Assembly (NCBI GenBank): GCA_023213395.1
Contig: CM041465.1
Location: 126,363,741-126,427,740 of the forward strand
Direction: 5' to 3'
Length of the DNA: 64,000 nt
Source of the DNA: Cycas panzhihuaensis
Taxonomy: Eukaryota > Plantae > Cycadophyta
This document shows positions 27,957 to 59,270 of the stretch, piece by piece. The stretch's first letter is position 1; each line of letters starts with the position of its first letter. The notes beneath the pieces were generated by a model, which saw only the letters and a program-made list of their open reading frames with translations, made no database searches and had not been told where the DNA came from. The position numbers and the translations under genes were made by a program.

Positions 27957-29128
27957 TCATTTTAGTTTGAAGAAGTGGTGGTTCAAAGCTTCGTTAGCGG
28001 AAAGACGCTCCCTTGGGTCAAACTTCAACAAACCACGAAGCAAATCAATGAGGGCTTCTGATGAGAGATCCCCATTTTGATTGACAAGATTCCGCAGGCG
28101 AGGCAATCTCTGGACTAGTCGAACTCTGTCTCTGGATGCAGCCCCCCGTGGCCAGTTGAGTTCCCTACCATTTCTAATGTACTCCCTTCCACAATCAGCA
28201 GCCCATTTTATCATATGTTGAGGAATTGGTCCCAATACCCGTTGCATCATTGCAAGGTGTTCCAAATCATCATCGGTCTGAAAAAGGGCATTTCCACAGA
28301 ATAATTCCGCCAAAACGCACCCAACACTCCACAAATCGATAGGATAACTCCATCCAACACCCATTACCACCTCAGGTGCTCGGTAACCTCTCGTGGTAAC
28401 TACCTTGCGATGGTATTGGTTCTGGAATGTGGCATTACCAAAATCTATGAGTTTAATTGCACTCGACGAGGGAATGCACTTATAACGATTCTTACGATCC
28501 GAAGAATTCTTGTCATATTCCGAGGAGACGAGAAGAATGTTATCAGGCTTTAGATCAGTATGTGAGAGAGTGAGCTCATGAATGAATGCAACAGCCTCCA
28601 ACAGCTGACGTGCGAATTCCCGAATCAGAACAACAGACAAGGGCCGGTGATTGTTTCTACGTAATAAATCGTATAAACTCGGTCCAAGCTTTTCACAAAC
28701 AATGCACACATGGGCACCAAAATGAAACCAAGTCTTCAATTTCAGGCAGCCTCGGGATCCATTGGTATCAAACTCTGCTATCCTGCGAAGAATGTCAATT
28801 TCAGTCATAGCTGCAACACCATATTGCCATTCACTGCGGATAACCTTGATGGCTACATGCTCTTGCTTTTCACCGTCCCAACAATCTAAAACTCTACCAA
28901 AAGTTCCTTCGCCCGGTTGCTAATAATCCTGTACCGAGATGTTATGTTTTCTCCAACCTCAAACACGTAGTGCCCATCTTTGTTATCCGGTCGCCATGGA
29001 TGGGACGCAACAGCATGTACATGGTTAGATCTCATCTCATCACGCTCCTTTTTCTTCCCGTGATTGGACCGTGACTCTTTAATACGACGACTTGTGGAAG
29101 GTTGTTTATAATAAACTGCGCTCTCCAT
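27957..29128 (-). CDS. Second, near-identical copy of the intronless LAMMER/CLK kinase; one 1-bp frameshift at ~28915
   Basis: Same motifs. This copy reads 'gcccggttgc' where copy 1 reads 'gcccagtttgc'. Restoring the base gives the same 390-aa ORF. Confidence 0.9.
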
Positions 29129-30399
29129 ACCAAAACCTCTTCCAAGAGATCAACCGAGCGATTATTTCAGCGTGTGTATCGAATTATTTTCGATCCTAGA
29201 TACTTTGCAGAAATTATTGAACCGCACAATAACAGTACACACAAGTTAAAGCGCCTCCACACACAATCGAATTGTGATGTCTTACCGTACAACTTCCTAC
29301 TTACTATATATGGATTCAGGTATGCGTGCGGCCGACTTATAGCTGAGGCGGCCCACAACACACAGAGACACCATAGGCATGTCCTTATTCAGCACGTCTC
29401 TCTGCTCAGAACTCCTCCCCGTCCTCTTCCCTTAGGGAAGGATAGCATGGAGTAATTTTATTGGACGGCTATGCCCTTGCCAATACCTCTCGTCATCCCA
29501 AAAACTAGAACACTTTACAAAGAATCGCATCAAGGACACGACTAAGGAAACCGTCATAGCGCATGTGAAACCGAGTCAACTCATTATCTTCTAAAGACGC
29601 TTCATACCATTAATGCTCTCATTTACTTAGAATAACGGTTCATACTCCACCTTGCTCTGGAACCTTATCTTAAATCCTACCACCGTGTCTTCATTTCACA
29701 ATTGTTGAAGGCACTTATTTCTAAAGGACATCCGATGTTGCCACTAGAATGTATCTATGATGATGGAAATGTAAGATAGAAGCCACAGCCAATAACGTGG
29801 TATCAAATGATAGCTTGCATACTCAAAATTAAGGCTCTCTTAAACATTATTAATGGAAATTAGAAAAGACTTGAAAAGTGCGTTAACGACAAGAACTCAA
29901 GCACAAACAAACCATAATAAATACGAATAATGGAAAATAGAAAGAACTCAATCTATGGTTATTTGGAAATGCCATTTATGGATACAACGTTTGAGATGGG
30001 TTATGCTAGAAGGATTACAGTGGGGTTTATCAGAGATGATGGAAACATGATATGAACCGTCATGAACAACCTCAATTACTGCAAAAGTACCGTGCCAACA
30101 AGAATGAAATTTATCGATGCAAATTCATCATTAACTTTGTCAAAAAGAAAAATGAGTCCAATGGGGTAAAATAAAGAAAGAAAAACAGTTTGATCATATT
30201 TTAAATTAGGTTGCATTTTGATATCTTCTAGATTGTTTAAGTCACGCAGGCTATCTTCACCAACCTTTTCTAGCTTAATGAGCCAAGTCTCAAATGCTAT
30301 GCAATTCAAAAGTTGGTTGCAAATATCTGAATAAAGGGAATGAATTTTACTTTTAATGGGAATTATAGATTCTAGACCATAAACTAGAGAAGATGTGAC

Positions 30400-32962
30400 T
30401 GTTTCCCAGCTATTGGGAATGGACTCGAGACGCATCGACACAGGTGGGTGCAGGTATATGCTTTTACTTTGCTTGCTTACGATTGCTGAAGTAATCTAGG
30501 ATGGTTTGATTGACATGTGCCTGCCTACATGCATTTGTTTGATTGCCTGTTCATAATGCATGTGCCTAACGGCACCTCTTAGCCTATGACGACTCACAGC
30601 GGGGGCATTCATTAGCGAATGCGACACCCCGTATGGCGTACGACCACTCATGATGTCTCCATGGTCTTTTGGGATGCTTTTGCCAGCCTGTTTATTCGTG
30701 CTACCACATGCCACTTATGTTGCAAACCCTTCCTAAGCCCGGTTTGACCCTTAGTTAGGACTCTTTGCACCGTTTGAGTACTTGCCTATGGCCTAAACCT
30801 GCTTTTAATTAATGCATTTCAATTTTAACTTATGATTTTACCCTAAAAACTGGATTTCCTATATTATTTTTCTGTTTTTCTGAGTTTCGGGTCCGCATCA
30901 TGATAAACTAAGCGATCTGGAGTTTCCAGTGATCGCTGAAGTTTGTGATTTGATCGCTTAAAATTCGAAAAAGAGAAGCCGCTGACAATGGCGTTTCTTG
31001 TGGCTGCTGCGTGGCTCCCAACCGTTGGAGGCGCCCGAGGGCCCCCAACGTTTACTTGCTTTGCTCAAGGCATAAAAGCCCTTTTCTTACTCATTTGTGA
31101 TAATTCTCTACTTCATTTTTTGGACTCTCTACTTCACTCTCTCAAGTTTTCTAGAGCATTTCTTCATAAAAGAAAAAGACCAAGAAGCATTGACAAGAGG
31201 CATCCTTCCACAACTGCGGGACAGAGGTACCAAGGGCTGCTATAGCTGGAGTTGCAGGGCCGTTGCCGCCTCCTACGGAGCTCCAATACAAGCACTCTTC
31301 CTCCTCATACACACCCAAGGTTTTCAAGGGGATTTCTCATCAAAAACAAAAAACACTACAAAGAGCCATTCCCAGGCTCTCAACTTGCATGAGGCTTTAC
31401 CACCCTATTCTCTTGCAAGGGACATGCAACACCACCTCATAGGCATCGTTTGGACCGCTGCTCCAAGTTGCCAAGTGCCTACATGCACTCATTCTTCACC
31501 GTTCGAGGTATTTAGTGTCTCTTGTTGAGTGGTTTTTTTTGCTTGTTTTTTATTGTTTATTTGCAAATCTTTTCCTACCTTTGCACATGCATTTCCTTGA
31601 GTTTCCTTCGGTCATTTGATGCACAGAACCGTAGCAATTGTGGCCTATTGGAGTGTTGCCCTAGACTAGGCCCAGTTTCTCACTTTTCCCTAAACTCATC
31701 CTTTTCCTCCAACCCCTCTCTTTCACCATTTCCTAGGCTAGCCGGCATAAAGGGTTACACGAGGATTCGAGGGAGGTAGGCGGGGTTCCGTCCCCCATTG
31801 CCGTCCTACTCCCCAAGGGTTCCGTCCCTTATCCTCTCCCCCTTTATCTCCCACACTCGCTTAGGAAACGGGGCTAGAGAAGCTTTGCAGAGTCAGTTTG
31901 AGTACCCGTCTTGGCATAGGCTACCCGTTGCTACACGAACCGTTCTGTTACATGCTAGCACCGCTTCCCTATACCTTGTGGAGACCTCTCGTGGGTGAGT
32001 TAGCCATCCCGAGGCTACACTCAGTCCCATTTGGTGCATTCGTGGTGTATGACAGTTGCATAGTTGTCGTGTGACTTCGTTTCTTTTTCGTTGCATGCTA
32101 GTGCTGAACTATATTTCCCTAGCTTAGTCAGTTTCATTTACGGCATATACATATATATATATTTCCGTGTTTCGTAGCCTCTCTCCCGAGAGGAGGGTAT
32201 TCTGTTTGATTGTTCGCAGGAGCGCTCGGGAGGAAGGGGCGCAGGAGATCGACCCGTTGCCGGTCGACGCTTGCATGGTACGCTTCCCTTCGTTTATGCT
32301 GTTTTGAGTTTTACTGCATTATTTCAGTTTAGCTAGTCCTTGCTTGCTTTTGGGGAGGTAAGTGGACCCCTTTTATTGCCTTCGACCGACGTCATATACG
32401 AGGAGGACGGCGGGAGGAAGCGCAACCGTGGAGGGAAACCTGCGTCTCTGCCCAAACGCCGGATCCAGGTATTTCCCGCGTATCTTTCATACTCTCTTTT
32501 GTGCTCTTACGTTTCTTGCATTTATTTTAATAGTTAAAGGAACATAAAAGAAAAAGAAAGAATCATTTACTTTACGCTTGCTTTTCCTGTACATTTGCTT
32601 TACTTGCACCTTTTTTATTATACGCCGCATACCATAGTGCTCGGAGACCCTTTGATCGGTCCCCCTTGGCCATCTTTACCCTGTACCTGTGACACGTTTG
32701 GTTGATTGCCCCCCTCGTCGCCTTCTCATTGCCTTGATAAGCTGCGACGTGCGAGGTTCCTTTTCCCTTCCCGGCCATCCGAAGGGTAGGAAGGCCTCGC
32801 CTTGCACGCCACTGGGAGCAACCAGCACCTCGATCCGTGCACTCCGCTCCGGCCAAGACGGACGTCCTGCGAGGTATGATCCTCGCTTTCTAGCTTGCTT
32901 AGCATATTATTTTATGCCCTTCCCGCTAGACGTTGGGTCATTGCCCCGTGGAGAGCGTTTCA
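30400..32962 (+). repeat. 5' LTR of the Gypsy element (2563 bp)
   Basis: TGTTTCCCAG...GAGCGTTTCA; direct repeat of 41481-43984. Confidence 0.95.
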
Positions 32963-32963
32963 C

Positions 32964-32981
32964 TGGCGACCATACTGGGGA
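32964..32981 (+). promoter_or_regulatory. Primer-binding site, tRNA-Arg-like
   Basis: TGGCGACCATACTGGGGA lies 1 bp after the LTR and resembles the Tat/Ogre PBS TGGCGACTCCACTGGGGA. Confidence 0.7.
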
Positions 32982-33143
32982 CTGCCAGTAAGGGAGCTAA
33001 ATCTGCTTCCCCTTCTTGTTGGTGTTCTTGCCTCTAGGTAGGTTCGCATTTCGTGTTTTCGGTTGGGCAACCCCCAACGCATTTGCATTACTTTTTCTTC
33101 TTTCCCTGCTCGCTTCTTCTAACGCCGCTCGTAAGGGCGTTGC

Positions 33144-35528
33144 ATGCGACGTTTCTCGCGTCGCCTGCGAGGCTTGCCGCCGTTGTCGGAAGACCGAGCT
33201 TCTCGCCCCTCTCCATCGTCGAATCCCGATTCGACCATGGAAGGTTATCCTTCTGATTGGGCATATCGTCCCATGGCTTCAGGAACTCAGGAGTTCCCCT
33301 CATCCGTTCCGGAATCCACCCATGAGGGCGATGATTCCATTTACTACCTGGATGACCATTTCCACCCGGATGACTTTCGGCCTTCCGCTCAAGCAGCGGA
33401 TGATTCGGACCCTCACGAGACTCACCACCCTGCTGGTGAGCCTTACGAGGGGCGCCCCGAAGGATCCCCTACTTTCGAAGTCCCTTCGACCTCGTACGGC
33501 TATGAGGATACCCCTCCCGCTGATGCGATCGAGGCGTTTAGCGAGTGCTTTCGCGCAGCTCGCCGCCAGCCGCCTCCTAGATGGTTCGCGGAGATGCTAC
33601 GCAACGTAGCATCTTCTTCGTCCATGCCCGCATCATCTACGACAATTGACGCCCCTACCCGCGCGTACACTTCCTATGCCGTGTCCACCCCGGCTCCGAA
33701 GGCAAGTGTTACGCCTCCTGTTTCCTGTTGTGGCCCTACTTCCTCGGGGCCCATTCGTGGTGTGTCTTTTCCTCAACTTGGGGTTAGCATGCCATGCCTT
33801 AGTCAAACGCACGCGCCACCTTCGAACGTGACGCATGCGTTCCCTAGTAGGCCTCGTGGTCCTTCTAGTGCTGCCACCGCTAGCCATGTAGGACCCACTC
33901 CTACATATGGCCAGAACCCGACTGGTGGTCCTTCTCTTTACGTACCCCCAGGCTACACCGCTCAACCTTGGGGGCAGGGCAAGGGGAGCCATCTCCCTGT
34001 TTATGGGGTGGATCCGTTGCACCCATATGGGGTTGCGCCACCTACGGGTGGCCCATATGGGCAAAACCCGGTCTCTCATCCTCTGTTTCCGTCGTCCAGC
34101 AGAGCTCCCATCGCCGCGTCATCGCAAGGGAGCGTGCCCCTTTTCCAAAGCTTTTACCCGCAGCCCCCTTTCCAACAAGGGGCCTTTTCCCAAGGAGGGA
34201 TGGGTTTGCCACCCCCATCCATTCCTTTACCGGTTGTCGACCCGTTAGCCCAAGCAAGGACACGTCCTTTCGTGGACTATAGGTCGACGCCATTGTCTAT
34301 AGAGGCGCTAAGGACTAACCTGCCGCCTCACCCTCCTGAAGTTCCCAAATTCGACGGGACTTCGTCGCAAGACCCAACCGAGCATGTGCGCAGCTTCTCT
34401 ATGGCGTGCATCGATTATTGGGCTTACGACCATATACTCATGAAGCTCTTCCCGCGGTCCTTGCAGGGCGATGCCCTCAAGTGGTTTTACCGCCTTCCTG
34501 CCCATTCGATCTCCTCATTCCAGCAGCTAGTGGACGAGTTCGTCAACTATTTTGACGTGGCTCGCCCATTCGAGAGCGGAATGAAGGTGCTTCTGTCGCT
34601 CAAACAAGGTCACGATGAGATGAATCGTGATTTTGTGCGACGTTTTCACGATCTCCTTCACTCCACCAAGGCTACGTTGCCTGAGGAGTTGAAGAGAGAC
34701 CTTTTTGTCAATGCACTTCGCCCCGAAGTGCATGTGGAAGTCCTCAAGATGGGGGCGACCACGTGTGACTCCGCCATCTCGAGGTGTTTAGCTTTGGAGG
34801 CCATTGAGATCCAAGCAGGACTCAAGAAACCTCCCAAGCCCTCGCAACGTCGCGAGGCGCCTCCTCCGGTGAAGGAGACCACACCTTCGCAACCTGCTAG
34901 GTCCACCTCTCATCCGACTGAGAGGACCCTAGATCCCCTTACTTCTGCTATTCGCTCATTCGAGCGCGCGATGAAGGAGTTAAAACTCCAACCTCCTTCA
35001 TCGCCAACCTCCCATAAACCTGTCCAGCAGACTTCTCGTGCGATGCCCCCCAAAGGGGGCAACACCCAACCTTCTCAAGCAAGGAGGATTGACCCTCCCC
35101 TTGAGAAGAGGTGGTGTTCTATCCACGGGGAGTGCTTCCATGACGATTCGCGTTGCCGGGCACAGCACCCATACAATGCCCCGCCGCGCGACTCGTCCCC
35201 TAGGCGGACATCGAGGCCTAACCTCGATCAGCCCATTCATAGAGACTCGTTCCCCAAACATGGGGAACGTGGTCGCGATGTCCAGCGAAGGAACAGCTGG
35301 AATCGGGATAGGTCTCCCGATTCCCGCCCTTCGCATGGTAGAGGGAAGGGTGTGCGAAGGTCGCCTTCCCCTTCGCGCTCCCCTAACCGCCGTGCTCCTT
35401 CGCCTTCGCAGTCCCGCTACAAGGGAAAGAAGGTTGTCCAATTGCTTGAGACCACCCCGTTATATGCCTTAACCCGGTCCCAAGCTGCTAAAGAGCGATG
35501 GTGCCTCTTCATCCACATCTCACCTTGA
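33144..35528 (+). CDS. gag: Gag of the Gypsy element (Pro-rich N-terminus, Retrotrans_gag core, CxxH..H..C knuckle, RS-rich tail); probably continuous with protease before indels
   Basis: Motifs PKFDG..DPTEHV, LFPRSLQGDALKWF, LKQG..E..RDFVRRF and WCSIHGECFHDDSRC. Confidence 0.85.
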   Translation: MRRFSRRLRGLPPLSEDRASRPSPSSNPDSTMEGYPSDWAYRPMASGTQEFPSSVPESTHEGDDSIYYLDDHFHPDDFRPSAQAADDSDPHETHHPAGEPYEGRPEGSPTFEVPSTSYGYEDTPPADAIEAFSECFRAARRQPPPRWFAEMLRNVASSSSMPASSTTIDAPTRAYTSYAVSTPAPKASVTPPVSCCGPTSSGPIRGVSFPQLGVSMPCLSQTHAPPSNVTHAFPSRPRGPSSAATASHVGPTPTYGQNPTGGPSLYVPPGYTAQPWGQGKGSHLPVYGVDPLHPYGVAPPTGGPYGQNPVSHPLFPSSSRAPIAASSQGSVPLFQSFYPQPPFQQGAFSQGGMGLPPPSIPLPVVDPLAQARTRPFVDYRSTPLSIEALRTNLPPHPPEVPKFDGTSSQDPTEHVRSFSMACIDYWAYDHILMKLFPRSLQGDALKWFYRLPAHSISSFQQLVDEFVNYFDVARPFESGMKVLLSLKQGHDEMNRDFVRRFHDLLHSTKATLPEELKRDLFVNALRPEVHVEVLKMGATTCDSAISRCLALEAIEIQAGLKKPPKPSQRREAPPPVKETTPSQPARSTSHPTERTLDPLTSAIRSFERAMKELKLQPPSSPTSHKPVQQTSRAMPPKGGNTQPSQARRIDPPLEKRWCSIHGECFHDDSRCRAQHPYNAPPRDSSPRRTSRPNLDQPIHRDSFPKHGERGRDVQRRNSWNRDRSPDSRPSHGRGKGVRRSPSPSRSPNRRAPSPSQSRYKGKKVVQLLETTPLYALTRSQAAKERWCLFIHISP

Positions 35529-35849
35529 TCCTCCTCCGGAAGCTATTCCTCTGGAGATTCCTGCGCTTCCCAAGACTATTCCCGTCCGCCCCGGTAGATT
35601 CGACTTTAGAATGGCGCTTACCCAACCCACAGGGAAGGGTAAGCCCTTTTCTATCGTTGACGAGCTCTACACCGTCGCCGCGGGAATGTCCTTGATGGAC
35701 GTCTTCGCCCCGAGCAACGTGCTCTTCTTCTTGAAGCTCTTGGCCAACAAGATGCTTCCATCCAGGCGATAGGTGCTACCTCTCATGGACCACCTATAAT
35801 TTCATTTGATCCCAGAGATCTCCTATCTCCCAGCAAGCGGGAGAAGCTT

Positions 35850-36374
35850 TTGCATTACCCATTCATCATTACCATTGACACTCCTAATTGTATCATAAAG
35901 AGGACCGTTGTAGATAATGGCTCCTCGGTTAATGCTATGCCTGTGCGTATGCTCAAGGAGCTAGGCATAGTAGCTCTTGAGTCTGTCCCTTGCAAATGCC
36001 AAGGGTATGATGGGACTGCGAAGTCCCCTCTACGGGCAGTCTCCCTTTCCCTCACCTTAGGAGGGAAAACTGTTTCTGTCGAAGTTGCTGTACTCGATGT
36101 CGATGTGGAGTACAACCTCTTGTTGGGCCGACCATGGCTCGACCAGATGGGAGCAGTCTGCTCCACGCAATGGGGGCAACTTAAATTTGTCCATGAAGGA
36201 CGAGTTAAAGTTGTCGCCCGTGAGCCAATGCCGTCTCACACCTCTCATCCACCGCCAGTTGTTTCGATGATGAAGATAGTGATCCTGAGGAGGCTACCCC
36301 TTCTGCGGGACCTTTGTTTCAGGAGACCGACCTTCATCAGTCGGACCCTATGCCGTGCCATGAGCCAAACCTAA
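35850..36374 (+). CDS. Retropepsin-type aspartic protease fragment
   Basis: Catalytic motif VVDNGSSVN and YNLLLGRPWL. Confidence 0.85.
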   Translation: MHYPFIITIDTPNCIIKRTVVDNGSSVNAMPVRMLKELGIVALESVPCKCQGYDGTAKSPLRAVSLSLTLGGKTVSVEVAVLDVDVEYNLLLGRPWLDQMGAVCSTQWGQLKFVHEGRVKVVAREPMPSHTSHPPPVVSMMKIVILRRLPLLRDLCFRRPTFISRTLCRAMSQT

Positions 36375-36876
36375 TTATGTTTGCCCCTATCGGCGTAGGT
36401 GGTTACGGTTGCTTGCCCATCACAGGTGATTCTGATTCGGATAGCGAGGGTTATGGGCCCTCTCCTCGACGCGTCACCCTGGTTTCGCAAGCACCTAGGG
36501 GAATATCTCGATCGGATATTCCCGCTCTTCCTCATTCTACATTGGCTTTCCGAGTCACCGGTCTTAAACCAGCCATTTATTTTACCTTCTCGGCCTCCTC
36601 GAGCGGTTTCATGTAAGCGCCCACGTCGACGAGCCACTCGTAGAGGCACTTCTTCTTCACGCTCTAGATCCTTACCTCGGACTAAAGCCACTCTTACTCG
36701 TATGCAACCCTGCCACGAGATCCGTCGTGTGCCAGGTCCGTTGCGCTCATCTAGTTCTATCCATAGTAAGTTTACTAGTATGCTTAGCGATACTGGACCT
36801 ACTCTTCGTCACCTATCTCCTACCCTGCGTGTGACTACCCCTACCTTTATGGGGTCTAGGCATACCTCTTCCTCTC

Positions 36877-37046
36877 TTCTTGCTCCGAAACGAGCCTAAA
36901 CTACCATTTTAAATTATTTCCATTCCTCCCAACCATGGGTTGAATGGCAGTTTAAGATGGATTCTTGCTCCGAAACGAGCTTAAACTACCATTTTAAATT
37001 GTCTCCATTCTTCCCAATCCTGAGTAGAATGGCAATTTAAGATGGG
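36877..37046. repeat. Two tandem 85-bp repeats, each able to form stem-loops
   Basis: 'ttcttgctccgaaacgagc' occurs at 36877 and 36962. CCATTTTAAATT..CCATTC can pair with GAATGGCA(G/A)TTTAAGATGG. Confidence 0.8.
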
Positions 37047-37730
37047 TTTTCAGTTTTCTTAGGTTCCTCATGGAACCCGCGTTCCCGTACTCTTGGGAAC
37101 CTTTGTCTTCCTACTTTGGGCATTCCTCAACCTAGGACGACGCTGCGGAGTATCGTTACTCCCCTCTTCATGCTTGTCGTTTCCCTCGCATATTCCGCTA
37201 TGCTCCCCTGTGGACGTGCATGCCGCCCTATCTTCTAACCTCATGCCTCTCGATCACCTCTGCTCACGGTGGATACGTGTGCTCCTGTTAGACGTATGGC
37301 CATGCACAGAAGGAAACGCCTGGATATTTACAAAATTTTACAACAAAACATATACATTTACACATTCACATATTTACATATTAACATTTACAACATAAAA
37401 TTATTCATTTACAAAATAAGCCATACATACTATCTCTCTCATACATGGTATGCACCAGCTCATGTCAAAATGGGGCTCCAATTGCCCCGTATGTGTATAT
37501 ATCAAAAATGTCATAGTACATCGTGTATGTGGGAAGCCGGGATCCTTGCAGGGGGAGTACAATCATGTGAGTCTACATATGACCCCCTGGAGGCCCGTGC
37601 TTTCCCGCCAAAATCATACATATGTGCGTCCTCGGGTCTACTACTGTTGTCCGGACCCGGGGGTCCCATCTCCTGGCCTGTGTGATCCCTCTCCTGGGGA
37701 CTACATCCCTGCGAGGCTCCTCCACAGGCC

Positions 37731-40007
37731 TCATGAGCCTGCCTCGCTCTCCTCGTCCCGTGGCCGTCTCGGGGTCGTAGCCGCTGTGTGGGTTTGTGTC
37801 CGGCTCCTGCTCGACCTCGAGACCATCTCGGCCACCAGCTGGTCGTAGCGGACCTGGATGCGGTCCCTCTCGCCCCGTAGTCCCTCCTCGACGATTCTCG
37901 CTCTATCCTCCAACGCCTTAAGGCGCTCCTCTAGGACTGCGAGGCGAGTGCTGATCCCTGCGTCCCCTCCTGCTCCGCTCTGGCTCCTCGAAGCCTGGGC
38001 CTCTGCAACCCAGATGTCTCGCACCCTCACCAGTGGGGCGAATGCCCGCATGTAGGCTCCCGTCGATCTAGGCGCATCCTTTGCCTGGATAGGCGGTTGT
38101 CCCTCTGCGTAGACCTGAGGGAACAACTCCCTCATCGCAGCCTCGACCAGTCTCTGAACCTCCGCTACGCCTGCCAATGCAACATGCAGTGTGTCAGTGT
38201 GTATCCTCGATGTGTATAAAGCAAAATCAGAATCAAATCTCTGTCTAGATGTCAAACGACTAGGGGAACGGTTAGGTCTCACCTGCCGTGGCCGCCGGAC
38301 TCCCTGCTCGGGCGACATCTCCCTCTCCTGGCTCCCCGCCAGCTGCCGGTGCCTCATCCTCAGGCACATCCTCTGCCTCTGCCTCGTCTCTAGCAGGGAT
38401 TGGCTCAACTCTCGCCCCTCCGGATCTCCTCACGATCCGGAGCCTGCGCCCCCTGGTCCCTGTAGCCCTGCTCACCTCCGCAGCTCCTGATGGGCCTGCC
38501 CCTCCTGTGGTAGCCCCAGATGATCCTGCTGCACCTCCCGACGGCTGTGACGGACCTGCCTCTCCTGCAGGTCGTGATGGGCCGGCCCCATCTCACCCGT
38601 CGTCACTGTCGTCGCCCCCATCGCCCCCATCGGCGCCATCATCGTCGCTATCCTCGATGGGTGCTCCTCCCTCTGCTGGGTCATCGCTCGCCCACCTCAC
38701 CGCCCTGTATGGATCCGCCACGTAATCTGTCAGGGTGAGGAGGTCGAGCGATGTCGCGTCGACCGACCGGCGGACATGAGGCTGATCCTCTGTCCCTCTG
38801 AACCTCGTCTGCCACCTGTGGACCATCGGGGCCCACCTCGCTATGGGGAATGGCCCCCCTGCTGGCGCCACTACCGCAAAGTGATCAAAGAACCAGCACT
38901 GCAGTAATGTGCTGTATGAGAGTCCGCCTCTCCCCGATCTCCTGATAGCGTCTAGTTGGGCGATAAGGTTCGCCGCAACCAGGGTCGCCCAATCCATCCT
39001 CTCGCCGGCCTCACCTGCCGTCCTGGCCCACCCATCCTCCGAGGATCTCCTCAGAGTTACATTCCGGGAGATCCGGAACAGAATGCATAGTAGTATGAGC
39101 TTCCTCACCCGAGGAATCCCCGACATAAGTACTGTCTGGAGGGGAGCTCCCCTCCGCTGCCACCTAGCTCCCCCCGTGAGGAACTGAGCTGCCTCCGTGT
39201 GTGCTGCCTCATTGCTAGGCAGCGCCCTCAGTCTCACGGGTCTCCCCGTCGCCGGCACCCCCAGGATCCGCCTGACATCCTCCGGAGTGACGGTGACATC
39301 CCCTATCTGGGGCAAGTGAAATACGTGTCTCCTCCTATCCCAGTGCGACACTATGTCCACCAGGAGCCTCTGATCCGATGCGAACTGGGGGGTCTTCAGG
39401 GCCTTGTACAGCCCGCATCTCTTCAAGACCGCTCTATCATCCTCCGTCGACATCTCCAAATAGCTCAGGATGGGCATGCCGACGTTCTCGCGGTTATCTA
39501 CCGCGGTGACTACCTGTAACCAGTAAAAGCCAGCCAAAGTTAGTCTCCTAGCAGTCACCTAGGCTCCTAGCTATCCTGTCAGTTGTTTTCTCTGCTTTTG
39601 GGAGCTATTTGGGCCCCCGTTTCTTGTTTTACGATTTCCTGCCTGCGTACCGCTCCAAATTTAGCGGTACCGCTAAATTCAGAGCGGGCCCCGCGGCAAT
39701 CAATACATCAGCAAAGATCGCGGTGCCGCGATCTTTCTGCAGATCACGTGACATTCTAAAAAGGGGTTTTTGCCCCCGAAAATCAAATTTTTTTGTGGTG
39801 GACCCCACGTGGGGCCCAAGGACCGTGGTCGCCTAATGCCTGTGTCCCGCCTCTTGCCGAGTCCGATTCAGACTCCGAGGGGCTTCTAACCGCCCATAAG
39901 GGGCGTAAAAAGCATTAAAATTGAAGCTAAAAGCAATGAACTTCAAATTGTGAAATGACTAGGTTTTCGTTGGATCCACTCACCGGATCCGGTCTGACGG
40001 TCGCCAT
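37731..40007 (-). CDS. Antisense three-exon plant mobile domain (PMD, aminotransferase-like) gene; exons 40007-39984, 39513-38283, 38170-37731; one in-frame TGA at 38593-38595
   Basis: PMD motif IVSHWDRRRHVFHLPQIGDVTVTPEDVRRILGVP. Donors CCG|GTGAGT and CAG|GTGAGA; acceptors CTAAC..TTACAG| and CTGAC..GGCAG|. Both splices preserve the frame (565 codons). Confidence 0.8.
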
Positions 40008-40167
40008 GGGGTCTCCGGGATCGTGGCAACTGTCTCCTCGCGTAGATCCAATGGTCGGATCGTCCTCGGTGTGCCTCTGAAGTCGGGTAGCGCTCCGCGT
40101 CGTAAGGAAAAGGCTCTGGTTTCGTACGAGAGCCGGTGAAAATGAATCCGGTTTTCATTGATTTTCC

Positions 40168-40174
40168 TTATATA
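40168..40174 (-). promoter_or_regulatory. Putative TATA box (TATATAA) for the antisense PMD gene
   Basis: CCTATATAAGG on the minus strand, about 160 bp upstream of the exon-1 ATG, in a GC-rich context. Confidence 0.5.
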
Positions 40175-40705
40175 GGCGGGGGCCCCGGCGGGCACTTCTC
40201 CCGTTTTTGGCTTCGTGACAGTCGTTGGGACCGTCTCGTCGCGCTGATTACCTTTGCCTTCTGGCCCTGCCGCCCATTGCGTTCCATGGATGCCCTTCTC
40301 GTTTTCCTTTACGAAGGCATTTATGGCGCCTCATTATGGCGCTCTTGGCAGGGCCCTTTTGCACCGTTTTGCGCGCTGCTCCCGAGCATGCCCAAGTTTA
40401 TACTTGTTTGGCTCGTTTCGCTGCCCTGGACTCATTTTTGCGGCCTTTTCTTGCCCCTGAGGCTCCCAAAAGAAATGCTCCCCTGTCTGGGGGCATGTGT
40501 TGCTTCCCGGAGCAACTTTTGGGGACTCTAGGGCGCCCTTTTTCTGCCTACTCTCAGTCAGTGCCCTGATGGCTTGCTCTCGTTCTTGGGTAACCTCATT
40601 GCTAGGTCCTCCTACCCTTCGCGGCCCGCTCCGCGCCTGCTATTCGAGTCTTTGTGTTGCTTACATTACTATTTGTGATTGTTTACCAGAGTTTAGCATT
40701 CGACC

Positions 40706-41128
40706 ATGTCTCTCCTTATTTTCACCGATGGTGGGAGTCGCGGCAACCCCGGACCTTCCGCCGCTGCGTGGATTCTCCACAGCCCCTCCGGACACGACTA
40801 CCTGCGTTCCGGAGTCTTCCTTCCCGAGGCCACCAATAACGAAGCCGAGTACACGGCCATTATTGACGCCCTTACCGATGCTCTTCGTTTCCATCACGGT
40901 TCTATTGTGCTGTTCTGCGATTCTCAGGTTGTGGTGTCCCATCTCACCCAGGTTTATCAGGTGCGATGCCCTCACCTGAGAACCCTCGCGTCTGCCGCCA
41001 GGTCTCTCTTGGCTTGTTTCTCATCGGTGGATATTCAGCATATCCCCAGGCACCTCAACGCTGAGGCCGACAGCCTCGTCCGCCTCATCCTTGAGCGTCG
41101 CCTCCCTCTTCTTGATGACCGCCGCTGA
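40706..41128 (+). CDS. Stand-alone RNase HI (archaeal-type 'aRH' of Tat retrotransposons)
   Basis: FTDGGSRGNPG, ATNNEAEY, CDS and HIPRHLNAEAD: all four acidic catalytic residues are present. The ORF has its own ATG and stop. Confidence 0.9.
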   Translation: MSLLIFTDGGSRGNPGPSAAAWILHSPSGHDYLRSGVFLPEATNNEAEYTAIIDALTDALRFHHGSIVLFCDSQVVVSHLTQVYQVRCPHLRTLASAARSLLACFSSVDIQHIPRHLNAEADSLVRLILERRLPLLDDRR

Positions 41129-41480
41129 GGCTTGCCTGGCCAGCCCGTGCCCAAGTCTCCAGTTGCGGGCTAGTTAGATGTGCTTGCCCTGTTTGCCGGA
41201 TGCCCTCCTGCTTCACATTGCACCATGGTAACGGGGGCATCCCGTTCTTCTTGCTTGCTTGATTTAGATTCGATGATTAGGCAGCGTGGCGACCACTACG
41301 TTGTCCTCGTCTCTGTCTCCCTTGTCCACGCGTTCCGCCACGACACTTGCCTACGCCCTTGGACCACGTGCTGCTCTTTATTGTTTATATATATGCATGT
41401 GCTACTCATGTTTCTTGGTTGACAGCATTCGCCATCACATTACGCTTCCGAGCAGTGAGGCTCTACTGCCAAGGGGCCAG

Positions 41481-43984
41481 TGTTTCCCAGCTATTGGGAA
41501 TGGACTCGAGACGCATCGACACAGGTGGGTGCAGGTATATGCTCTTACTTTGCTTGCTTACGATTGCTGAAGTAATCTAGGATGGTTTGATTGACATGTG
41601 CCTGCCTACATGCATTTGTTTGATTGCCTGTTCATAATGCATGTACTAGCGGCACCTCTTAGCCTATGACGACTCACGGTGAGGCATTCATTAGCGAATG
41701 CGACACCCCGTATGGCGTACGACCACTCATGATGTCTCCATGGTCTTTTGGGATGCTTTTGCCAGCCTGTTTATTCGTGCTACCACATGCCACTTATGTT
41801 GCAAACCCTTCCTAAGCCCGGTTTGACCCTTAGTTAGGACTCTTTGCACCGTTTGAGTACTTGCCTATGGCCTAAACCTGCTTTTAATTAATGCATTTCA
41901 ATTTTAACTTATGATTTTACCCTAAAAACTGGATTTCCTATATTATTTTTCTGTTTTTCTGAGTTTCGTCTGGTAGTAGTAAACTAAGCGATCAGCGGAG
42001 TTTCCAGTGATGCCAAGTTTCTTGTGACGATCTGCTTAAAATTCGAAAAAGAGAAGCCTGACGGTGACGCGTTTTTGCGCGGAACTGCCTCGTGGCTCCC
42101 AACCGTTGGAGGCGCCCGAGGGCCCCCAACGTTCACTTGCTTTGCTCAAGGCATAAAAGCCCTTTTCTTACTCATTTGTGATAATTCTCTACTTCATTTT
42201 TTGGACTCTCTACTTCACTCTCTCAAGTTTTCTAGAGCATTTCTTCATAAAAGAAAAAGACCAAGAAGCATTGACAAGAGGCATCCTTCCACAACTGCGG
42301 GACAGAGGTAACAAGGGCTGCTATAGCTGGAGTTGCAGGGCCGTTGCCGCCTCCTACGGAGCTCCAATACAAGCACTCTTCCTCCTCATACACACCCAAG
42401 GTTTTCAAGGGGATTTCTCATCAAGAAAAAAAAACACTACAAAGAGCCATTCCCAGGCTCTCAACTTGCATGAGGCTTTACCACCCTATTCTCTTGCAAG
42501 GGACATGCAACACCACCTCATAGGCATCGTTTGGACCGCTGCTCCAAGTTGCCAAGCGCCTACATGCACTCATTCTTCACCGTTCGAGGTATTTAGTGTC
42601 TCTTGTTGAGTGGTTCTTTTTGCTTGTTTTTTTATTTGTTTATTTGCAAATCTTTTCCTACCTTTGCACATGCATTTCCTTGAGTTTCCTTCGGTCATTT
42701 GATGCACAGAACCGTAGCGATTGTGGCCTATTGGAGTGTTGCCCTAGGCTAGGCCCAGTTTCTCACTTTTCCCTAAACTCATCCTTTTCCTCCAACCCCT
42801 CTCTTTCACCATTTCCTAGGCTAGCCGGCATAAAGGGTTACACGAGGATTCGAGGGAGGTAGGCGGGGTTCCGTCCCCCATTGACGTCCTACTCCCCAAG
42901 GGTTCCGTCCCTTATCCTCTCCCCCTTTATCTCACTTTTCGCTTAGGAAACGGGGCTAGAGAAGCTTTGGAGAGTCAGTTTGAGTACCCGTCTTGGCATA
43001 GGCTACCCGTTGCTACACGAACCGTTCTGTTACATGCTAGCACCGCTTCCCTATACCTTGTGGAGACCTCTCGTGGGTGAGTTAGCCATCCCGAGGCTAC
43101 ACTCAGTCCCATTTGGTGCATTCGTGGTGTATGACAGTTGCATAGTTGTCGTGTGACTTTGTTTCTTTTTCGTTGCATGCTAGTGCTGAACTATGTTTCC
43201 CTACCTTAGTCAGTTTCATTTACGGCATATACATATATATATATTTCCGTGTTTCGTAGCCTCTCTCCCGAGAGGAGGGTATTCTGTTTGATTGTTCACA
43301 GGAGCGCTCGAGAGGAAGGGGCGCAGGAGATCGACCCGTTGCCGGTCGACGCTTGCATGGTACGCTTCCCTTCGTTTATGCTGTTTTGAGTTTTACTTTC
43401 TGTTATTTCAGTTTAGCTAGTCCTTGCTTGCTTTTGGGGAGGTAAGTGGACCCCTTTTATCGCCTTCGACCGACGTCATATACGAGGAGGACGGCGGGAG
43501 GAAGCGCAACCGTGGAGGGAAACCTGCGTCTCTGCCCAAACGCCGGATCTGTATTTCACGTATCTTTCATACTCTCTTTTATGCTCTTACATTTCTTGCA
43601 TTTATTTTAATAGTTAAAGGAACATAAAAGAAAAAGAAAGAATCATTTACTTTACGCTTGCTTTTCCTGTACATTTGCTTTACTTGCACCTTTTTTATTA
43701 TACCCCGCATACCATAGTGTTCGGAGACCCTTTGATCGGTCCCCCTTGGCCATTGCCTTGAGAAGCTGCGACGTGCGAGGTTCCTTTTCCCTTCCCGGCC
43801 ATCCGAAGGGTAGGAAGGCCTCGCCTTGCGGCCACTGGAGCAACCAGGGCACCTTGCGATCCGTGCAGCGCTCGCGCAAGCGGACGTCCTGCGAGGTATG
43901 ATCCTCGCTTTCTAGCTTGCTTAGCATATTACTTTATGCCCTTCCCGCTAGACGTTGGGTCATTGCCCCGCGGAGAGCGTTTCA
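41481..43984 (+). repeat. 3' LTR of the Gypsy element (2504 bp; lacks 56 bp relative to the 5' LTR)
   Basis: Same termini; preceded by a purine tract (aaggggccag). Confidence 0.95.
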
Positions 43985-44875
43985 GTGACAAATCCATTAG
44001 CTATCATGACAATGGATCAATTGAGATATAAGGATGGATAAATTTAACAATGCTAATAATTTTTGTATTCGTGAATGATAGTTTTCAAGAGTGATAATCA
44101 AGAGAAGGGTGATACGAGACAATGTGAAAGGTAAGGTAGATACACGTGTTATATTTGGCAATGGAGCTATAAATGTTGAATATATTGTCATATAAATATG
44201 AGATGAGAATAATTGGTAGGGAAACAAGTTGGGGATGAGAAGTATATGGGCGGTGTAAGTGAACGCAATGAATGTGGGCACTTTAGAAATAGAGTCATGG
44301 AGTATTAATTCAATGAGTATTAAAGGTTTTTTCATAAATATGATGATCTCGATACGCAAGTAGTGATTGTCTAGATGATGGTAAAAGAAATAATGTTAGG
44401 AGGTTAACCATAATCAAAGGTTATAAGAGAGTTAAATTCAAGAATGGTACGAACTTGTATATAATAATGGTTATTAAAATTGACATCTATAAAGACTAAA
44501 CAAAATGACAACCATTAGGTAATACAAGGTAATATGGTAGTCAGTAGCTAGGTGTGTGTAATGTTACTAGCAAGCGTAACATTATGGGAAGTAAAAGTGA
44601 TAAGCATGATGCAATGGTGCTATTTTAAGGCATTTACTTAGATACATACAATTACCTCATAATTCTATGGGGTTGGTAGGGAGTTAATGAACGATTGCAT
44701 TGTAAGATCTCCATCAACGTGACTTAAACAATTTGCATAAACTTTTCACTATTTATATACACACATAAGCAAGGAAGTTAATAGAGATTACCTAAGAGTT
44801 ATCAAAGTACAAAAACCTTTGCATGGGTCAAGGTTTAGAAATTGTTAAGGAACTCCTTGCAAAGGATGTCTCTAG

Positions 44876-55218: not shown

Positions 55219-58200
55219 ATGTCTTCTTCCATCATTACTCTGTCTGAACCTGAAAAACTCACCAGTTCAAATTATCATGTGTGGAAAATCAAAATGGAGA
55301 CTATTCTAATAATGAAAGATGCCTGGGAAATTGCTGAGGGAAAGGAAACCCGTCCTCCTGCCGGTGATGACAAATTGAAGAGTTGGATTGAAAGAAATAA
55401 CATGGGTAGTCTCACTGAAAAATGTCTATTTCAGATTCAGACTTGTTTATGTTGAAAACCCGAACCAGCCTCCAACTGGAAATGTTTAGAAAATCTATAT
55501 GGTCAAAAGAATAAAGCAAGGATAATCACACTCAAAGAAGAGTTGTATAAACTCCATATGAAAGAAAACGAAGCAGTGGAAGAATTTATGCATAAAATCA
55601 TCACTGTGAGAAATAATCTCCTGAGTGCTGGAGGAATGATATCAGAACAAGACCTTGTAGAAATAGTAATGCAAGGTGCCCAAATCTTTGATACCATTGT
55701 TAACACTATCACCGATAGTGACGGAGTTAGATAAATTAACTCTTGATGAATTGGCGGAATTGCTATTAAGGCGGAGGCGGAGAAACAAAAGGTACGAAAA
55801 TACGATGAGCTAGAAGATGCTTTTGCATCCAGGTTGAATCTCGGACAAAGAGGAAGACAACAATTTCGTGCACCTAGCGGTATCGATTCAGGTCGAGGAC
55901 GCCGGTCAAATTCAGGAGGACTAGGACGCCAGAGAAAAGCAGAATATGCTACAAGCGTGGACGAATCTGGACACTTGCAAACAATTGCGGGATCTTGACA
56001 TATCTCGCTACTGCGGACAAAGTGGACACTATCCCTATCAGTGTCCTCAAAGACGAAGTGAAATCTACAAAGGAAAAAGACCTATTGGCGGATACAGCAA
56101 AGAAAAAGATGAAGAAGAAGAAGAAGAGGAAGAGGAGACTGCTTTCATCACAGCGTTGGTCACGGGAATGAAAGACAAAGACATTTGGTACATAGATTCA
56201 GGAGCCTCTAAACACATGACGAGTCGAGAAGACTGGTTCCAAATCATAAATCCATACAATATGGACAAGTCCGTGGAGTTGGGTGACAAGTACTCCCTTA
56301 ACATCAAAGGGATTGGAACCATTTGATAAATCTGAATGGAAATGAAAGAAAAATTGGTAATGTTCTCTATGTACGGACACGAAGATGAATCTTCTTTCAG
56401 TCTCTCAACTGAGCAAAAAAGGGCTGAGGACCATTTTTGATGAAGAAGGGAATTGTCACATTCTGGATATGAAAAAAGATGAGAAAATTGTTGGAAAAGG
56501 GATCAGATGCAATGATCTCTACAAACTCCTGTCAAATCCTGTACTTCCTTGTTTGGAAGAAAAAGCATCTTGCTCTTAAATCTGATAATAAAGTTTGGCA
56601 TTTAAGGTATGGACGTCTTCCAATTGACACACTTAAACAAATGGAAAAGTCAGAAATGGTAAAAGGTTTACCCAATATCTCTTCAGATACATTTGTTTGT
56701 AAAGGTTGTCAACTCGGAAAACAGCATAGGTTTCCATTTAAAGAAAGCACTTGGAAATCTAAATCCAAATTAGATCTGATACACACTGATATTTGTGGCC
56801 CTATTTCACCATTGTCAATAAACGAATGCAGATATTTCCTAACCTTCATTGATGATTTCACTCAAAAAGTTTGGGTATATTTCTTACATAATAAATCTGA
56901 GGTCTTTGAAGCATTTAAAGAATTTAAGGCAGAAGTTGAGCTAGAATCAGGAATGAAAATCAAGTGTATCAGGTCAGATGGAGGAGGAGAATATATGTCG
57001 AACGAATTTCTAAATTACTGTAAATATAGAGGAATTCGTAGACAAATAACAACTCCCTATACTCCTCAGTCAAATGGAGTCGCCGAAAGAAAGAATAGGA
57101 CCTTGATGGAGATGGCTCGAAGCATGATGCATGGAACAAAGATATCAAAGACATACTGGGCGAGCGATCAAGACATGTTACTTAATAAGCAAAGTCCAAC
57201 CAGATCTTGAAGACATCACTCGGAGGAAGCTTGGACGGGTTTGAAACGATGTAAGTTCCCTCAAGGTTTTTGGTAGTCAAGCATTTGTGCATATTCACGA
57301 TAAAAAGGGTCCAAATTAGATGCAAAAAGCATAGAATGTGTTTTGATAGGATATAGTAAAAATTCAAAGGCATATAAGTGCATAGATCCTAGAACAAATA
57401 GAATCTATGTGAGTAGAGACGTCGTGTTTAATGAAGATACCTCAGAAGAGTCCTCACAAATCAAAATAATAGAAAGTGAAAAGGAATTGGGAACTACCAG
57501 ATACAGAATAGTGCAGGAAGACGAGGAAGAAGATCAGTCGGGCATTACTTCAGAAAATGAAGAAACTAGAGAGGAAAACGGGCTGGAAGAAGGACAAGTC
57601 GATTCGTCATCAACAACAGGTCAGGGAGACAACATCGAAGGGTCATCATCACCAACTGATCGGGGAGACATTCCACAGAAGCAAAAAAAACTGCCGAAAT
57701 GGTATATCAAAACTGTTGAAGAGGGAAATATATTAGAACAAAAGACTCGAGGGCAAAGGTCAAGAGCTCTCCTAAGCAAGGTTGAACCACGGAATTTTGA
57801 TGAAGCAAAAGATCATCCAGAATGGAGAGAAGCAATGGACAATGAAATAAACTCAATCAAGAAAAATCAAGCGTGGGAATTAGTAGAACTACACGCTAAT
57901 AAATCTATTATGCGCAAATGGGTTTACAAAACAAAGAAAGGAGTTGATGGCCAAATTGAAAAACACAAGGCAAGGTTAGTTGCAAAGGATATACTCAAGC
58001 TGCGGTATAGATTATGATGAGACTTTCTCTCGATGTGAAAGATGAACACGATAAGACGGTGATAGCCTTAGGCTGCCAAGGTTGGGGAATCTCTCGGATG
58101 GACGTAAAAAGTGCCTTCCTAAGCGGTGGCTGGAAGAAGAAGTTTATATGCAACAACCGAGATGGATACAGGCAGGGAAAAGAAAATCTAGTCTGCAAAT

Positions 58201-59270
58201 TAAAAAAGGCCTTGTATGGTCTAAAACAAGCACCACGTGCCTGGTATGCAAAACTAGATCACTTTCTTGAAGAAAATAAGTTCATTCGGTGTGACTCAGA
58301 TTCCAGTCTGTACATAAGGAAAACAAACAACAAGATAACAATAATTGTTGTTTATGTGGATGATATCTCTTCTTGGGAATGATGTAGAAGGAATCAAGTG
58401 GATCAAAAGTCAACTTGAGAAGTTTGAAATATGATTTAGGTTCACTAAATTATTACTTGGGACTGGAAATAGTTCAACATCAAAACTATGTAACTTTGTC
58501 CCAAAGTAACTACATCAAAAGTCTACTTGTTCGATTTAGGATGGAAAAGCGCAATCCATGCACCACTCCCATGGAGACAAATTGCAATCTAACGATGAGA
58601 CAATATGGAAAAAGATGCCATGCTACTCTATCTGAGGCAAATGATTGGAAGCCCGATCTACAGCGACCACCGGACAGACATATCCTACTCGGTAGGATTA
58701 ATATCAAGGTATATCACGAGAATCCAAAGTTAAGACAACGGCGGCAAAAAAATTACGAGATATCTCAAAAGAACAACGGATCTCAAGTTAGTTTATTCAA
58801 AGGGGCATCGATCAAAATCACGGATCTGCGATTGAGGTGGCGGCGACAAAGAACAAAGGAAATCAACAAGTGGTTTTGTTTTTCTTGGGAGATTCGGCAA
58901 TCTCATGGTGCAAGAAAAATAAGCCACGGTGGCTCTCTCCTCTCTGAGCGAGAATATAAAGCGACCACATCAAGAACTTTGTGAAGCCATCCGGTTAAGA
59001 CAACTCTTGCTTGATTTAAATCAACAACGAGAAAGAAGCAACTTCTTTAAAGTGTGACAATCAAAGTGCCATCAAGTGACCAAAAATCCAGTGCATGCAA
59101 GAACAAAACATATTGAAGTTCATCATCACTTTATAAGAGGAAGAGTACAGAACAAAGAAATAGTCTTGGACTCCTGGCCGACATCCGAACAAGTTGAGAC
59201 CTTGACAAAACCTCTTGGGAGAAAGACTCGAGATATTTGAGAGACAAGATTGGACTTATAGAGATAAAAC
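55219..59270 (+). pseudogene. Copia gag-pol polyprotein (gag, Zn knuckle, protease, integrase, RT, RNase H), broken by many frameshifts
   Basis: Motifs NYHVWKIKM, YCGQSGHYPYQC, WYIDSGASKHM, IHTDICGP, IRSDGGGEY, PQSNGVAERKN, KARLVAK, LYGLKQAPRAW, YVDD and RTKHIEV. Confidence 0.9.

What the first reader, a model, noticed from the sequence alone, without database searches (positions are those of the whole stretch)
37731..40174. Hidden spliced antisense PMD gene with its own TATA box inside the retrotransposon
Seen: TATATAA at ~40170. Exon 1 encodes MATVRPDP (40007-39984), followed by a 470-nt intron, exon 2 (39513-38283), a 112-nt AT-richer intron and exon 3 (38170-37731). Both junctions are canonical and in frame. 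The product is about 564 aa: PMD, an acidic/GA-rich linker and a coiled-coil-like end. Established: PMD occurs as an extra ORF in plant Gypsy elements, and host PMD proteins (MAIN/MAIL1) act in TE silencing and gene expression. Inference: antisense orientation protects the introns during retrotransposition, and the protein may be a chromatin or anti-silencing factor for the element.
Basis: partly seen in the sequence, partly recalled or inferred. Interest (0 to 1): 0.8.

Follow-up and report, generated by a model that had tools for sequence, protein, structure and literature searches.

The report
Spliced antisense VANC-fold gene in retrotransposon
A plant retrotransposon carries, on its opposite strand, an intron-containing gene whose protein is predicted to fold like a known transposon anti-silencing DNA-binding protein and likely helps the element family escape silencing; such antisense genes are already known in this element group, and this copy is interrupted by a stop codon.

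Summary
The gene lies in a 13.6-kb non-autonomous Tat-type Gypsy element (5-bp target duplication; gag, protease and a stand-alone RNase H; no RT or integrase found), probably from a gymnosperm. Contigs from two putative RNA runs of related copies carry the exon 2-3 joint; the exon 1-2 joint was not seen. An antisense PMD ORF in gymnosperm Tat lineage III, an internal antisense promoter (maize Grande) and the MAIN-VANC fold likeness are all published. Not found in my searches: introns in such a gene, the RNase H sitting head-to-head 3' of it, and a retrotransposon PMD whose model matches only VANC21-DNA (Z 11.5; next 2.5). Best reading: a family accessory gene for a likely DNA-binding, coiled-coil anti-silencing factor; function untested. 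New variant of a known kind.

The parts
30395..30399 (.). Left target-site duplication GTGAC
   Evidence: same 5 bases once at the empty site 8776-8780 of a sister repeat unit
30400..32962 (+). 5' LTR (TG..CA), 2563 bp
   Evidence: K2P 0.043 to the 3' LTR over 2493 columns, differences clustered
32964..32980 (+). Primer-binding site starting TGG, 1 base after the LTR
   Evidence: tRNA type not tested
33135..35528 (+). gag ORF (stop-to-stop 797 aa)
   Evidence: Retrotrans_gag E 1.9e-9
35661..36374 (+). Aspartic protease region, separated from gag by stops; no RT or integrase follows
   Evidence: Asp_protease_2 E 2.7e-6; no RT/INT Pfam hit in three + frames of 35400-37800 or 40200-41500
36877..37045 (.). 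Two copies of an 85-bp tandem repeat where RT-RH-INT would be
37300..37410 (-). Candidate 3' end of the antisense gene: AATGAATAAT at 37409 then a T-rich tract (GC 0.18 at 37350-37399)
   Evidence: inference from sequence
37731..38170 (-). Exon 3: predicted long helix (likely coiled coil) and basic tail, then stop
38171..38282 (-). Intron 2, 112 nt, GT-AG
   Evidence: joined form in contigs of runs X18 and X17
38283..39513 (-). Exon 2: PMD (about 39510-38680) then acidic and Gly/Ala-rich linker
   Evidence: PF10536 E 3.8e-16; model and fold search
38593..38595 (-). In-frame stop, codon 315, in the linker of this copy
   Evidence: relatives P0013 and P0074 read open across it
39015..39065 (-). 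Approximate patch that looks frame-shifted against relatives; frame stays open
   Evidence: by eye
39514..39983 (-). Intron 1, 470 nt, GT-AG; holds a 38-nt palindrome (39650-39687) and 7 GGNCCC motifs
   Evidence: acceptor echoed in relative P0019; joint not seen in RNA contigs
39984..40007 (-). Exon 1 coding part, MATVRPDP, ATG in a CCCATGG context; no upstream ATG in 40140-40008
40168..40174 (-). TATA box TATATAA with a GGGGCCCC element just upstream
   Evidence: diverged DNA contigs keep the core 40162-40198 (loose ends)
40709..41128 (+). Stand-alone RNase H ORF (139 aa), head-to-head with the PMD gene
   Evidence: RVT_3 E 1e-20, RNase_H E 6.7e-13; 'archaeal-type' label is from recalled motifs, no tree
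41455..41480 (+). Candidate polypurine-tract region before the 3' LTR (purine run is short)
41481..43984 (+). 3' LTR (TG..CA)
43985..43989 (.). Right target-site duplication GTGAC

Best explanation
This is an interrupted copy of an antisense, intron-containing PMD accessory gene inside a non-autonomous Tat-type Gypsy retrotransposon, and in open copies its product is likely a VANC-like DNA-binding protein that would keep the element family from being silenced. Shown: the gene anatomy, the PMD, the stop in this copy, the element structure, and the exon 2-3 joint in contigs of related copies. Inferred steps: Pol II starts about 30 nt below the TATA box and reads against the element; two introns are removed; the introns persist through retrotransposition because the genomic RNA carries them in reverse; the PMD binds DNA on a VANC21-like surface; the exon-3 helix forms oligomers; binding to non-coding motifs of the family counters DNA-methylation or Polycomb silencing. 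In this copy the stop lies about 310 nt before the last junction, so any transcript would give at most a 314-aa PMD-only product and would likely be degraded.
For: PMD above cut-off. Model pLDDT 77, pTM 0.76. Of 48,161 chains only VANC21-DNA (9LNK) reaches Z 5 or more: Z 11.5, rmsd 4.4, 245 aligned, next row 2.5; Foldseek rank 1 is the same protein (9LNJ, probability 0.84, TM 0.48). Exon 2-3 joint: X18 contig skips 112 nt (38167->38280), a second X18 contig bridges 38134->38280 with exon-3-like letters, and 3 X17 contigs have a loose end at 38280 that reads as the start of exon 3; a GT-AG intron on the minus strand implies minus-strand transcription. Relatives at 57-78% identity cover exon 2; P0019 matches from the acceptor onwards; P0013 and P0074 are open through the linker. 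8 of 13 listed differences in the PMD are synonymous against 34% expected (a small, non-random subset). Literature passages: antisense PMD ORF in gymnosperm Tat III, PMD plus coiled coil in lineages IV-V (PMC4408406); MAIL1/MAIN counter Polycomb and resemble VANC's DUF1985 (bioRxiv 2024.09.27.615353); VANC binds family-specific motifs and removes methylation (PMC10398659); VANC predicted to oligomerise by coiled coil (PMC13547354).
Against: A shared fold shows no function: identity to VANC21 is 8%, Foldseek E is 0.39, and the tool notes that Z under about 13 can be a common arrangement for helical proteins. The PMD here ends at the DPY..W motif and lacks the C-terminal part of host MAIN-LIKE proteins. 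No VANC-style tandem arrays of short motifs in the element, only one 85-bp duplication. Exon 1-2 joint absent from all 6 joints listed, and a 671-nt X17 contig spans intron 1 unspliced (expected from the sense genomic RNA, but not support). The runs are only guessed to be RNA, are unstranded contigs of other copies and species, and no DNA control was laid on intron 2. Exon 3 (3 of 8) and linker (2 of 6) differences show no synonymous excess. Exon 3 has no significant match to P0007 or P0095. This copy is broken.
Confidence: 0.5

Rival explanations
1. Same gene, other job: the PMD-coiled-coil protein is a replication accessory factor (LTR transactivator, RNA export, nuclear import or integration targeting) with no effect on silencing marks.
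For: Reviews propose retrovirus-like accessory roles for antisense ORFs; Grande GENE23 is nuclear (PMC7264820, parts 1-2 of 3 read). It sits head-to-head with an RNase H ORF. No VANC-like tandem target arrays.
Against: The only structural neighbour is an anti-silencing factor bound to DNA, and the studied host homologues act on chromatin state.
Confidence: 0.25
2. Self-restraint: the antisense transcript or its protein dampens the element (double-stranded RNA and siRNA, or a MAIN-like repressive role), and protein coding is secondary.
For: Antisense transcription can yield siRNA (PMC7264820); tea PMD loci make phased siRNAs (PMC10673657, passages); MAIN/MAIL1 were found as silencing factors (PMC5418596).
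Against: The gene overlaps no sense coding region; splicing, an open frame in relatives and synonymous bias in the PMD point to a protein; MAIL1's TE effect is reported as indirect, through MORC1.
Confidence: 0.13
3. Passenger: a host PMD gene captured with its promoter and introns and now decaying, with no role for the element.
For: Gene-like anatomy; stop and shifted patch in this copy; close protein relatives are all short fragments.
Against: The PMD groups with close relatives and three Cryptomeria PMD proteins (8 rows, 100/98) apart from the 24 other rows, whose named members are angiosperm MAIN-LIKE/PP7L-type proteins (long branches, midpoint root); the stretch is held by 12 coded organism labels; the antisense PMD ORF is a lineage trait (PMC4408406); it was kept while RT and integrase were lost.
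Confidence: 0.08
4. Exon 1 and intron 1 are mis-called: translation starts at the Met inside exon 2 (39477), or another upstream exon or TATA-like site (41393) is used.
For: No exon 1-2 joint; X17 shows a different skip 39517->39635; the exon-2 Met is kept in P0003, P0004 and P0019; a second minus-strand TATAWAW lies at 41393.
Against: Residues before that Met are conserved in relatives up to the acceptor; donor, acceptor, start context and TATA spacing are all the best local candidates. This rival concerns only the 5' end and is compatible with the others.
Confidence: 0.2

Closest known systems
Tat lineage III (TatIII) Gypsy elements of gymnosperms with an antisense PMD eORF (PMC4408406; PMC6317226)
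   Same: Antisense PMD ORF in the 3' half; extra RNase H downstream; 5-bp target duplication; 13.6 kb is inside the 12.7-17.3 kb range of the 39 REXdb elements.
   Different: No RT or integrase here; the RNase H stands alone 3' of the PMD gene, whereas the papers place it at the C-terminus of Pol; a coiled coil follows the PMD (described for lineages IV-V only); introns are not mentioned in the passages read. Figures and the supplement of PMC4408406 were not seen.
Maize Grande gene23 and Retand antisense ORFs (PMC7264820, PMC11963269)
   Same: Antisense accessory gene between pol and the 3' LTR, transcribed from its own internal promoter (Grande).
   Different: Those carry TRP28 or unnamed domains, not PMD; no introns reported in the passages read, and the 2020 review asks for spliced antisense transcripts to be looked for.
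VANC21 of VANDAL21 (MuDR DNA transposon; PDB 9LNK, 9LNJ)
   Same: Predicted fold over 245 residues (Z 11.5); transposon-encoded accessory gene; predicted coiled coil.
   Different: Retrotransposon host, 8% identity, no tandem target arrays seen, activity untested.
Host PMD-C proteins MAIN, MAIL1, MAIL2
   Same: PF10536; 21-28% identity over most of the domain for the best-covered MAIN-LIKE 2 hits.
   Different: Separate branch; C-terminal part of the PMD missing; element-encoded.

Membership tests
LTR retrotransposon, Ty3/Gypsy type | Two LTRs with TG..CA ends, target duplication, PBS | tested here: met
LTR retrotransposon, Ty3/Gypsy type | gag and aspartic protease of Gypsy type | tested here: met
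   (Retrotrans_gag, Asp_protease_2)
Autonomous element | RT, RH and integrase in pol | tested here: not met
   no RT or integrase hit; under 1.4 kb lies between protease and the PMD gene
Tat clade | Additional archaeal-type RNase H | tested here: inconclusive
   RNase H ORF found; archaeal type judged from recalled motifs only, no tree
TatIII | RT/RH/INT phylogeny in the TatIII clade | not testable with these tools
   element has no RT or INT; reference domains not held
TatIII | aRH after INT, at the C-terminus of Pol | tested here: inconclusive
   RNase H is downstream of where INT would be, but as a separate ORF beyond the PMD gene
TatIII | Antisense 3' eORF with PMD; 5-bp TSD; 12.7-17.3 kb | tested here: met
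TatIII | Gymnosperm host; tRNA-Arg PBS | tested here: inconclusive
   nearest named PMD proteins are from Cryptomeria; host labels are coded; PBS type not tested
PMD family (PF10536) | Score above the gathering cut-off | tested here: met
   59.6 bits against 34.9
Host PMD-C (MAIN/MAIL) | Branches with MAIN-LIKE proteins and has the full domain | tested here: not met
   (long-branch caveat)
VANC-type anti-silencing system | VANC21-like fold | tested here: met
   (predicted model)
VANC-type anti-silencing system | Tandem arrays of short target motifs in non-coding regions | tested here: inconclusive
   no such array; GGNCCC is enriched in intron 1, picked after the fact
VANC-type anti-silencing system | Sequence-specific binding and loss of silencing marks | not testable with these tools
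   needs experiments

The most novel reading that the evidence does not exclude
Gymnosperm Tat retrotransposons run their own VANC-type, sequence-specific anti-silencing system from a spliced antisense gene with an internal promoter shared head-to-head with a free RNase H; this would be an anti-silencing protein in an LTR retrotransposon, older than dicot VANC, a candidate root of the VANC/MAIN family and a reason why these elements fill giga-genomes.
Probability: 0.3. Interest if true: 0.8.

Novelty: new variant of a known kind. Interest (0 to 1): 0.47.

Why it matters
The function of antisense extra ORFs in Tat/Ogre retrotransposons is an open question (PMC4408406, PMC7264820). This case gives a concrete gene model (promoter, introns, PMD, coiled coil) and a structural lead to the one solved transposon anti-silencing factor, so the question becomes testable. 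It also shows that ORF-based surveys under-read these genes: the coiled coil sits in a separate exon. The copy in the window is itself broken, and the basic trait is known, which caps the score.

Tried and rejected
No genome is held, so copies could not be counted or compared. The search for homologous proteins with exon 2 residues 1-280 found nothing among 5200 candidates; the profile searches returned mostly angiosperm MAIN-LIKE proteins. No PDB sequence match under E 0.4. ESM Atlas did not run. No run on record as RNA was listed; four are guessed RNA. Depth dips over both introns were rejected as evidence: contig depth cannot rank parts, and the DNA run also dips in intron 1. One search showed 15 of 43 joints and 24 of 474 loose ends; one search showed all 6 joints and 24 of 354 loose ends, so a clipped 24-nt exon 1 joint could be among those not shown. 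A donor-like site at 38596 overlapping the stop was considered as a way round it: joining it to 38170 is out of frame (arithmetic lengths), and X20 contigs run on in acidic-repeat sequence there. Exon 3 against P0007 and P0095: not significant. Over-represented 8-mers in the element gave nothing. That introns explain the low 18% eORF rate in TatIII was rejected: exon 2 alone gives a 321-codon frame. Earlier scan findings: none by sequence or words. Literature: 9 searches found no report of introns in an antisense PMD ORF or of a retrotransposon PMD compared with VANC; Steinbauerova 2011 and Gomez-Orte 2013 were seen only as citations, Tanaka 2026 is not held, and bioRxiv supplements were not seen, so prior description is possible. 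No complex was predicted.

Full report
Observation. Exon lengths are 24, 1231 and 440 nt, introns 470 and 112 nt, both GT-AG, 565 codons in all. TATATAA lies at 40174-40168, 167 nt above the ATG, with no ATG in 40140-40008; it is one of 4 minus-strand TATAWAW matches in the element, the others being in AT-rich tracts at 43243, 41393 and 32161. The intron 1 donor is the best of 20 GT sites and its acceptor has the richest pyrimidine tract of 13. Exon 2 hits PF10536 above cut-off. About 15 codons near 39065-39015 resemble relatives P0002 and P0006 better in another frame (by eye). This copy is therefore interrupted, by decay or by assembly error: the two LTRs differ in clusters, with 61 transitions, 42 transversions and 82 gap columns.

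The element. LTRs span 30400-32962 and 41481-43984 with TG..CA ends, a GTGAC duplication and a TGG primer site; the empty site survives at 8776-8780 in a sister unit of the surrounding tandem array. Inside are gag and a protease, no RT or integrase in any + frame of 35400-37800 or 40200-41500, the antisense gene, and a 139-aa RNase H ORF at 40709-41128 facing away from it. So the element is non-autonomous yet keeps both accessory genes. An extra RNase H marks the Tat clade; gymnosperm TatIII has it after integrase, with 5-bp duplications and 12.7-17.3 kb (PMC6317226 passages and one supplement row). The nearest named PMD proteins are from Cryptomeria japonica, so a gymnosperm host is inferred, not shown.

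Splicing. Twenty runs under 12 coded organism labels hold part of the stretch, none on record as RNA. On four guessed-RNA runs (contigs only), X18 has a contig skipping 112 nt at 38167->38280 and another bridging 38134->38280 with exon-3-like letters; three X17 contigs end loose at 38280 with letters that match the start of exon 3. The only GT-AG placement of that skip is 38282-38171 on the minus strand. Unspliced contigs over intron 2 also occur (X17, X20), as the sense genomic RNA or DNA would give. No DNA control was laid there. For intron 1, none of the 6 joints is 39513/39984; X17 has an unspliced 671-nt contig and a separate skip 39517->39635. Indirect support: relative P0019 matches from the acceptor codon onward and residues before the exon-2 Met are conserved. 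In DNA run X1, diverged contigs match the core 40162-40198 around the TATA box and go loose on either side (66 at the left edge, 166 at the right among rows shown).

Protein. phmmer over 1.84 billion representatives gave 93 hits, 8 under 1e-10; the closest are short unnamed fragments at 57-78%. P0013 and P0074 align across the stop position without one, so the linker is coding in relatives. In a 32-row tree the PMD groups with these fragments, P0005/P0095 and three Cryptomeria proteins (100/98), apart from 24 rows whose named members are angiosperm MAIN-LIKE/PP7L-type proteins; branches are long and the root is a midpoint. The domain stops at DPY..W and lacks the C-terminal part of host proteins. 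Of 27 differences read from the best-supported rows, 8 of 13 in the PMD are synonymous (34% expected), 2 of 6 in the linker and 3 of 8 in exon 3: weak support, PMD only. The PMD model (35 sequences, pLDDT 77, pTM 0.76) has one structural match at Z 5 or more among 48,161 chains: VANC21 bound to target DNA, Z 11.5, rmsd 4.4, 245 residues, 8% identity, next row 2.5; Foldseek also ranks it first, with E 0.39. Exon 3 folds, without alignment, into a 58-residue helix with pLDDT about 80-95 over residues 71-120 and a Leu/Ile heptad.

Mechanism. Inferred: an internal Pol II promoter drives an antisense mRNA ending near the T-rich tract at 37400-37300; introns are kept in new copies because the packaged RNA carries them reversed (established logic; antisense-intron reporters, PMC12786077 passage). 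The product would be a DNA-binding PMD, a disordered acidic linker and an oligomerising helix. VANC21 binds family-specific motifs and strips methylation (PMC10398659 passages); MAIL1/MAIN bind promoter motifs and oppose Polycomb (bioRxiv 2024.09.27.615353 passages). I put family-specific anti-silencing first (0.5 for the whole statement; the anatomy alone is about 0.9), a replication accessory role second, self-restraint and passenger last. Against: fold is not function, and no VANC-like tandem arrays were found.

What is known. Antisense PMD ORFs in gymnosperm Tat III, and PMD plus coiled coil in lineages IV-V (PMC4408406, section 5 and passages; figures and supplement not seen). PMD in 57% of Ogre elements and as the commonest extra Gypsy domain (PMC9289625 passages). 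Gypsy PMD-A clades and a speculated anti-silencing use by MULEs (PMC5418596 passages). An own antisense promoter for Grande gene23, and a call to look for spliced antisense transcripts (PMC7264820, parts 1-2 of 3). MAIN-VANC fold likeness, read as capture of a host gene by VANC (PMC13547354 passages). PMC11963269, PMC7730604, PMC10673657 and PMC13477047 were read as passages. Nine searches found no account of introns in such a gene, of a free RNase H beyond it, or of a retrotransposon PMD set against VANC; three key papers could not be read.

Verdict. A real spliced antisense PMD gene of a known element group, broken in this copy, with three features I did not find in print and a good structural lead. 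New variant of a known kind; interest 0.47.

Noticed in passing
window 40709-41128 +: Stand-alone RNase H ORF with its acidic catalytic motifs apparently intact (recalled motifs), kept in an element without RT or integrase and placed head-to-head with the PMD gene about 535 bp from its TATA box; a shared bidirectional promoter is possible.
   Followed up: partly
P0098 (Cryptomeria XP_057852931) and P0095/P0005 against P0096/P0097: Two PMD relatives are fused behind unrelated host N-termini: a NAC (NAM) domain in P0098, and in P0095 a segment shared with P0096/P0097 up to one point (ALKBH8-like, recalled; no Pfam hit). Suggests that the PMD exon's acceptor traps host transcripts, or gene-model fusions.
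   Followed up: partly
window 1-30399 and 43985-64000: Tandem array of about 4.9-kb units (about 92-98% alike) into which the element inserted; two longer units hold intronless protein-kinase frames at 27957-28919 and 6341-7293 (minus strand), 99% alike, the latter split by a frameshift; shorter units keep only the kinase C-terminal end. LAMMER/CLK-like by recalled motif.
   Followed up: partly
window 55503-58984: Copia-type remnant (gag_pre-integrs, rve, SH3, RVT_2) inserted in a later repeat unit.
   Followed up: no
window 39514-39983 and 40008-40708: GGNCCC motifs: 7 against 0.8 expected in intron 1, 5 against 1.7 in the promoter zone (motif chosen after the fact, mononucleotide shuffles), plus a 38-nt palindrome at 39650-39687; candidates for host TCP sites (recalled) or for targets of the PMD.
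   Followed up: partly
P0099: One PMD hit also carries a precomputed PF09331 match (DUF1985 by recall, the VANC domain), a sequence-level hint of the PMD-VANC link.
   Followed up: no
run X19, joint 37465->41127: A contig skips 3661 nt, removing the whole PMD gene and the RNase H: a further-deleted family member may exist.
   Followed up: no
window 30400-43984: CpG observed/expected is 0.78-0.98 in the element against 0.39-0.52 in the flanks: young insertion or low methylation history.
   Followed up: no
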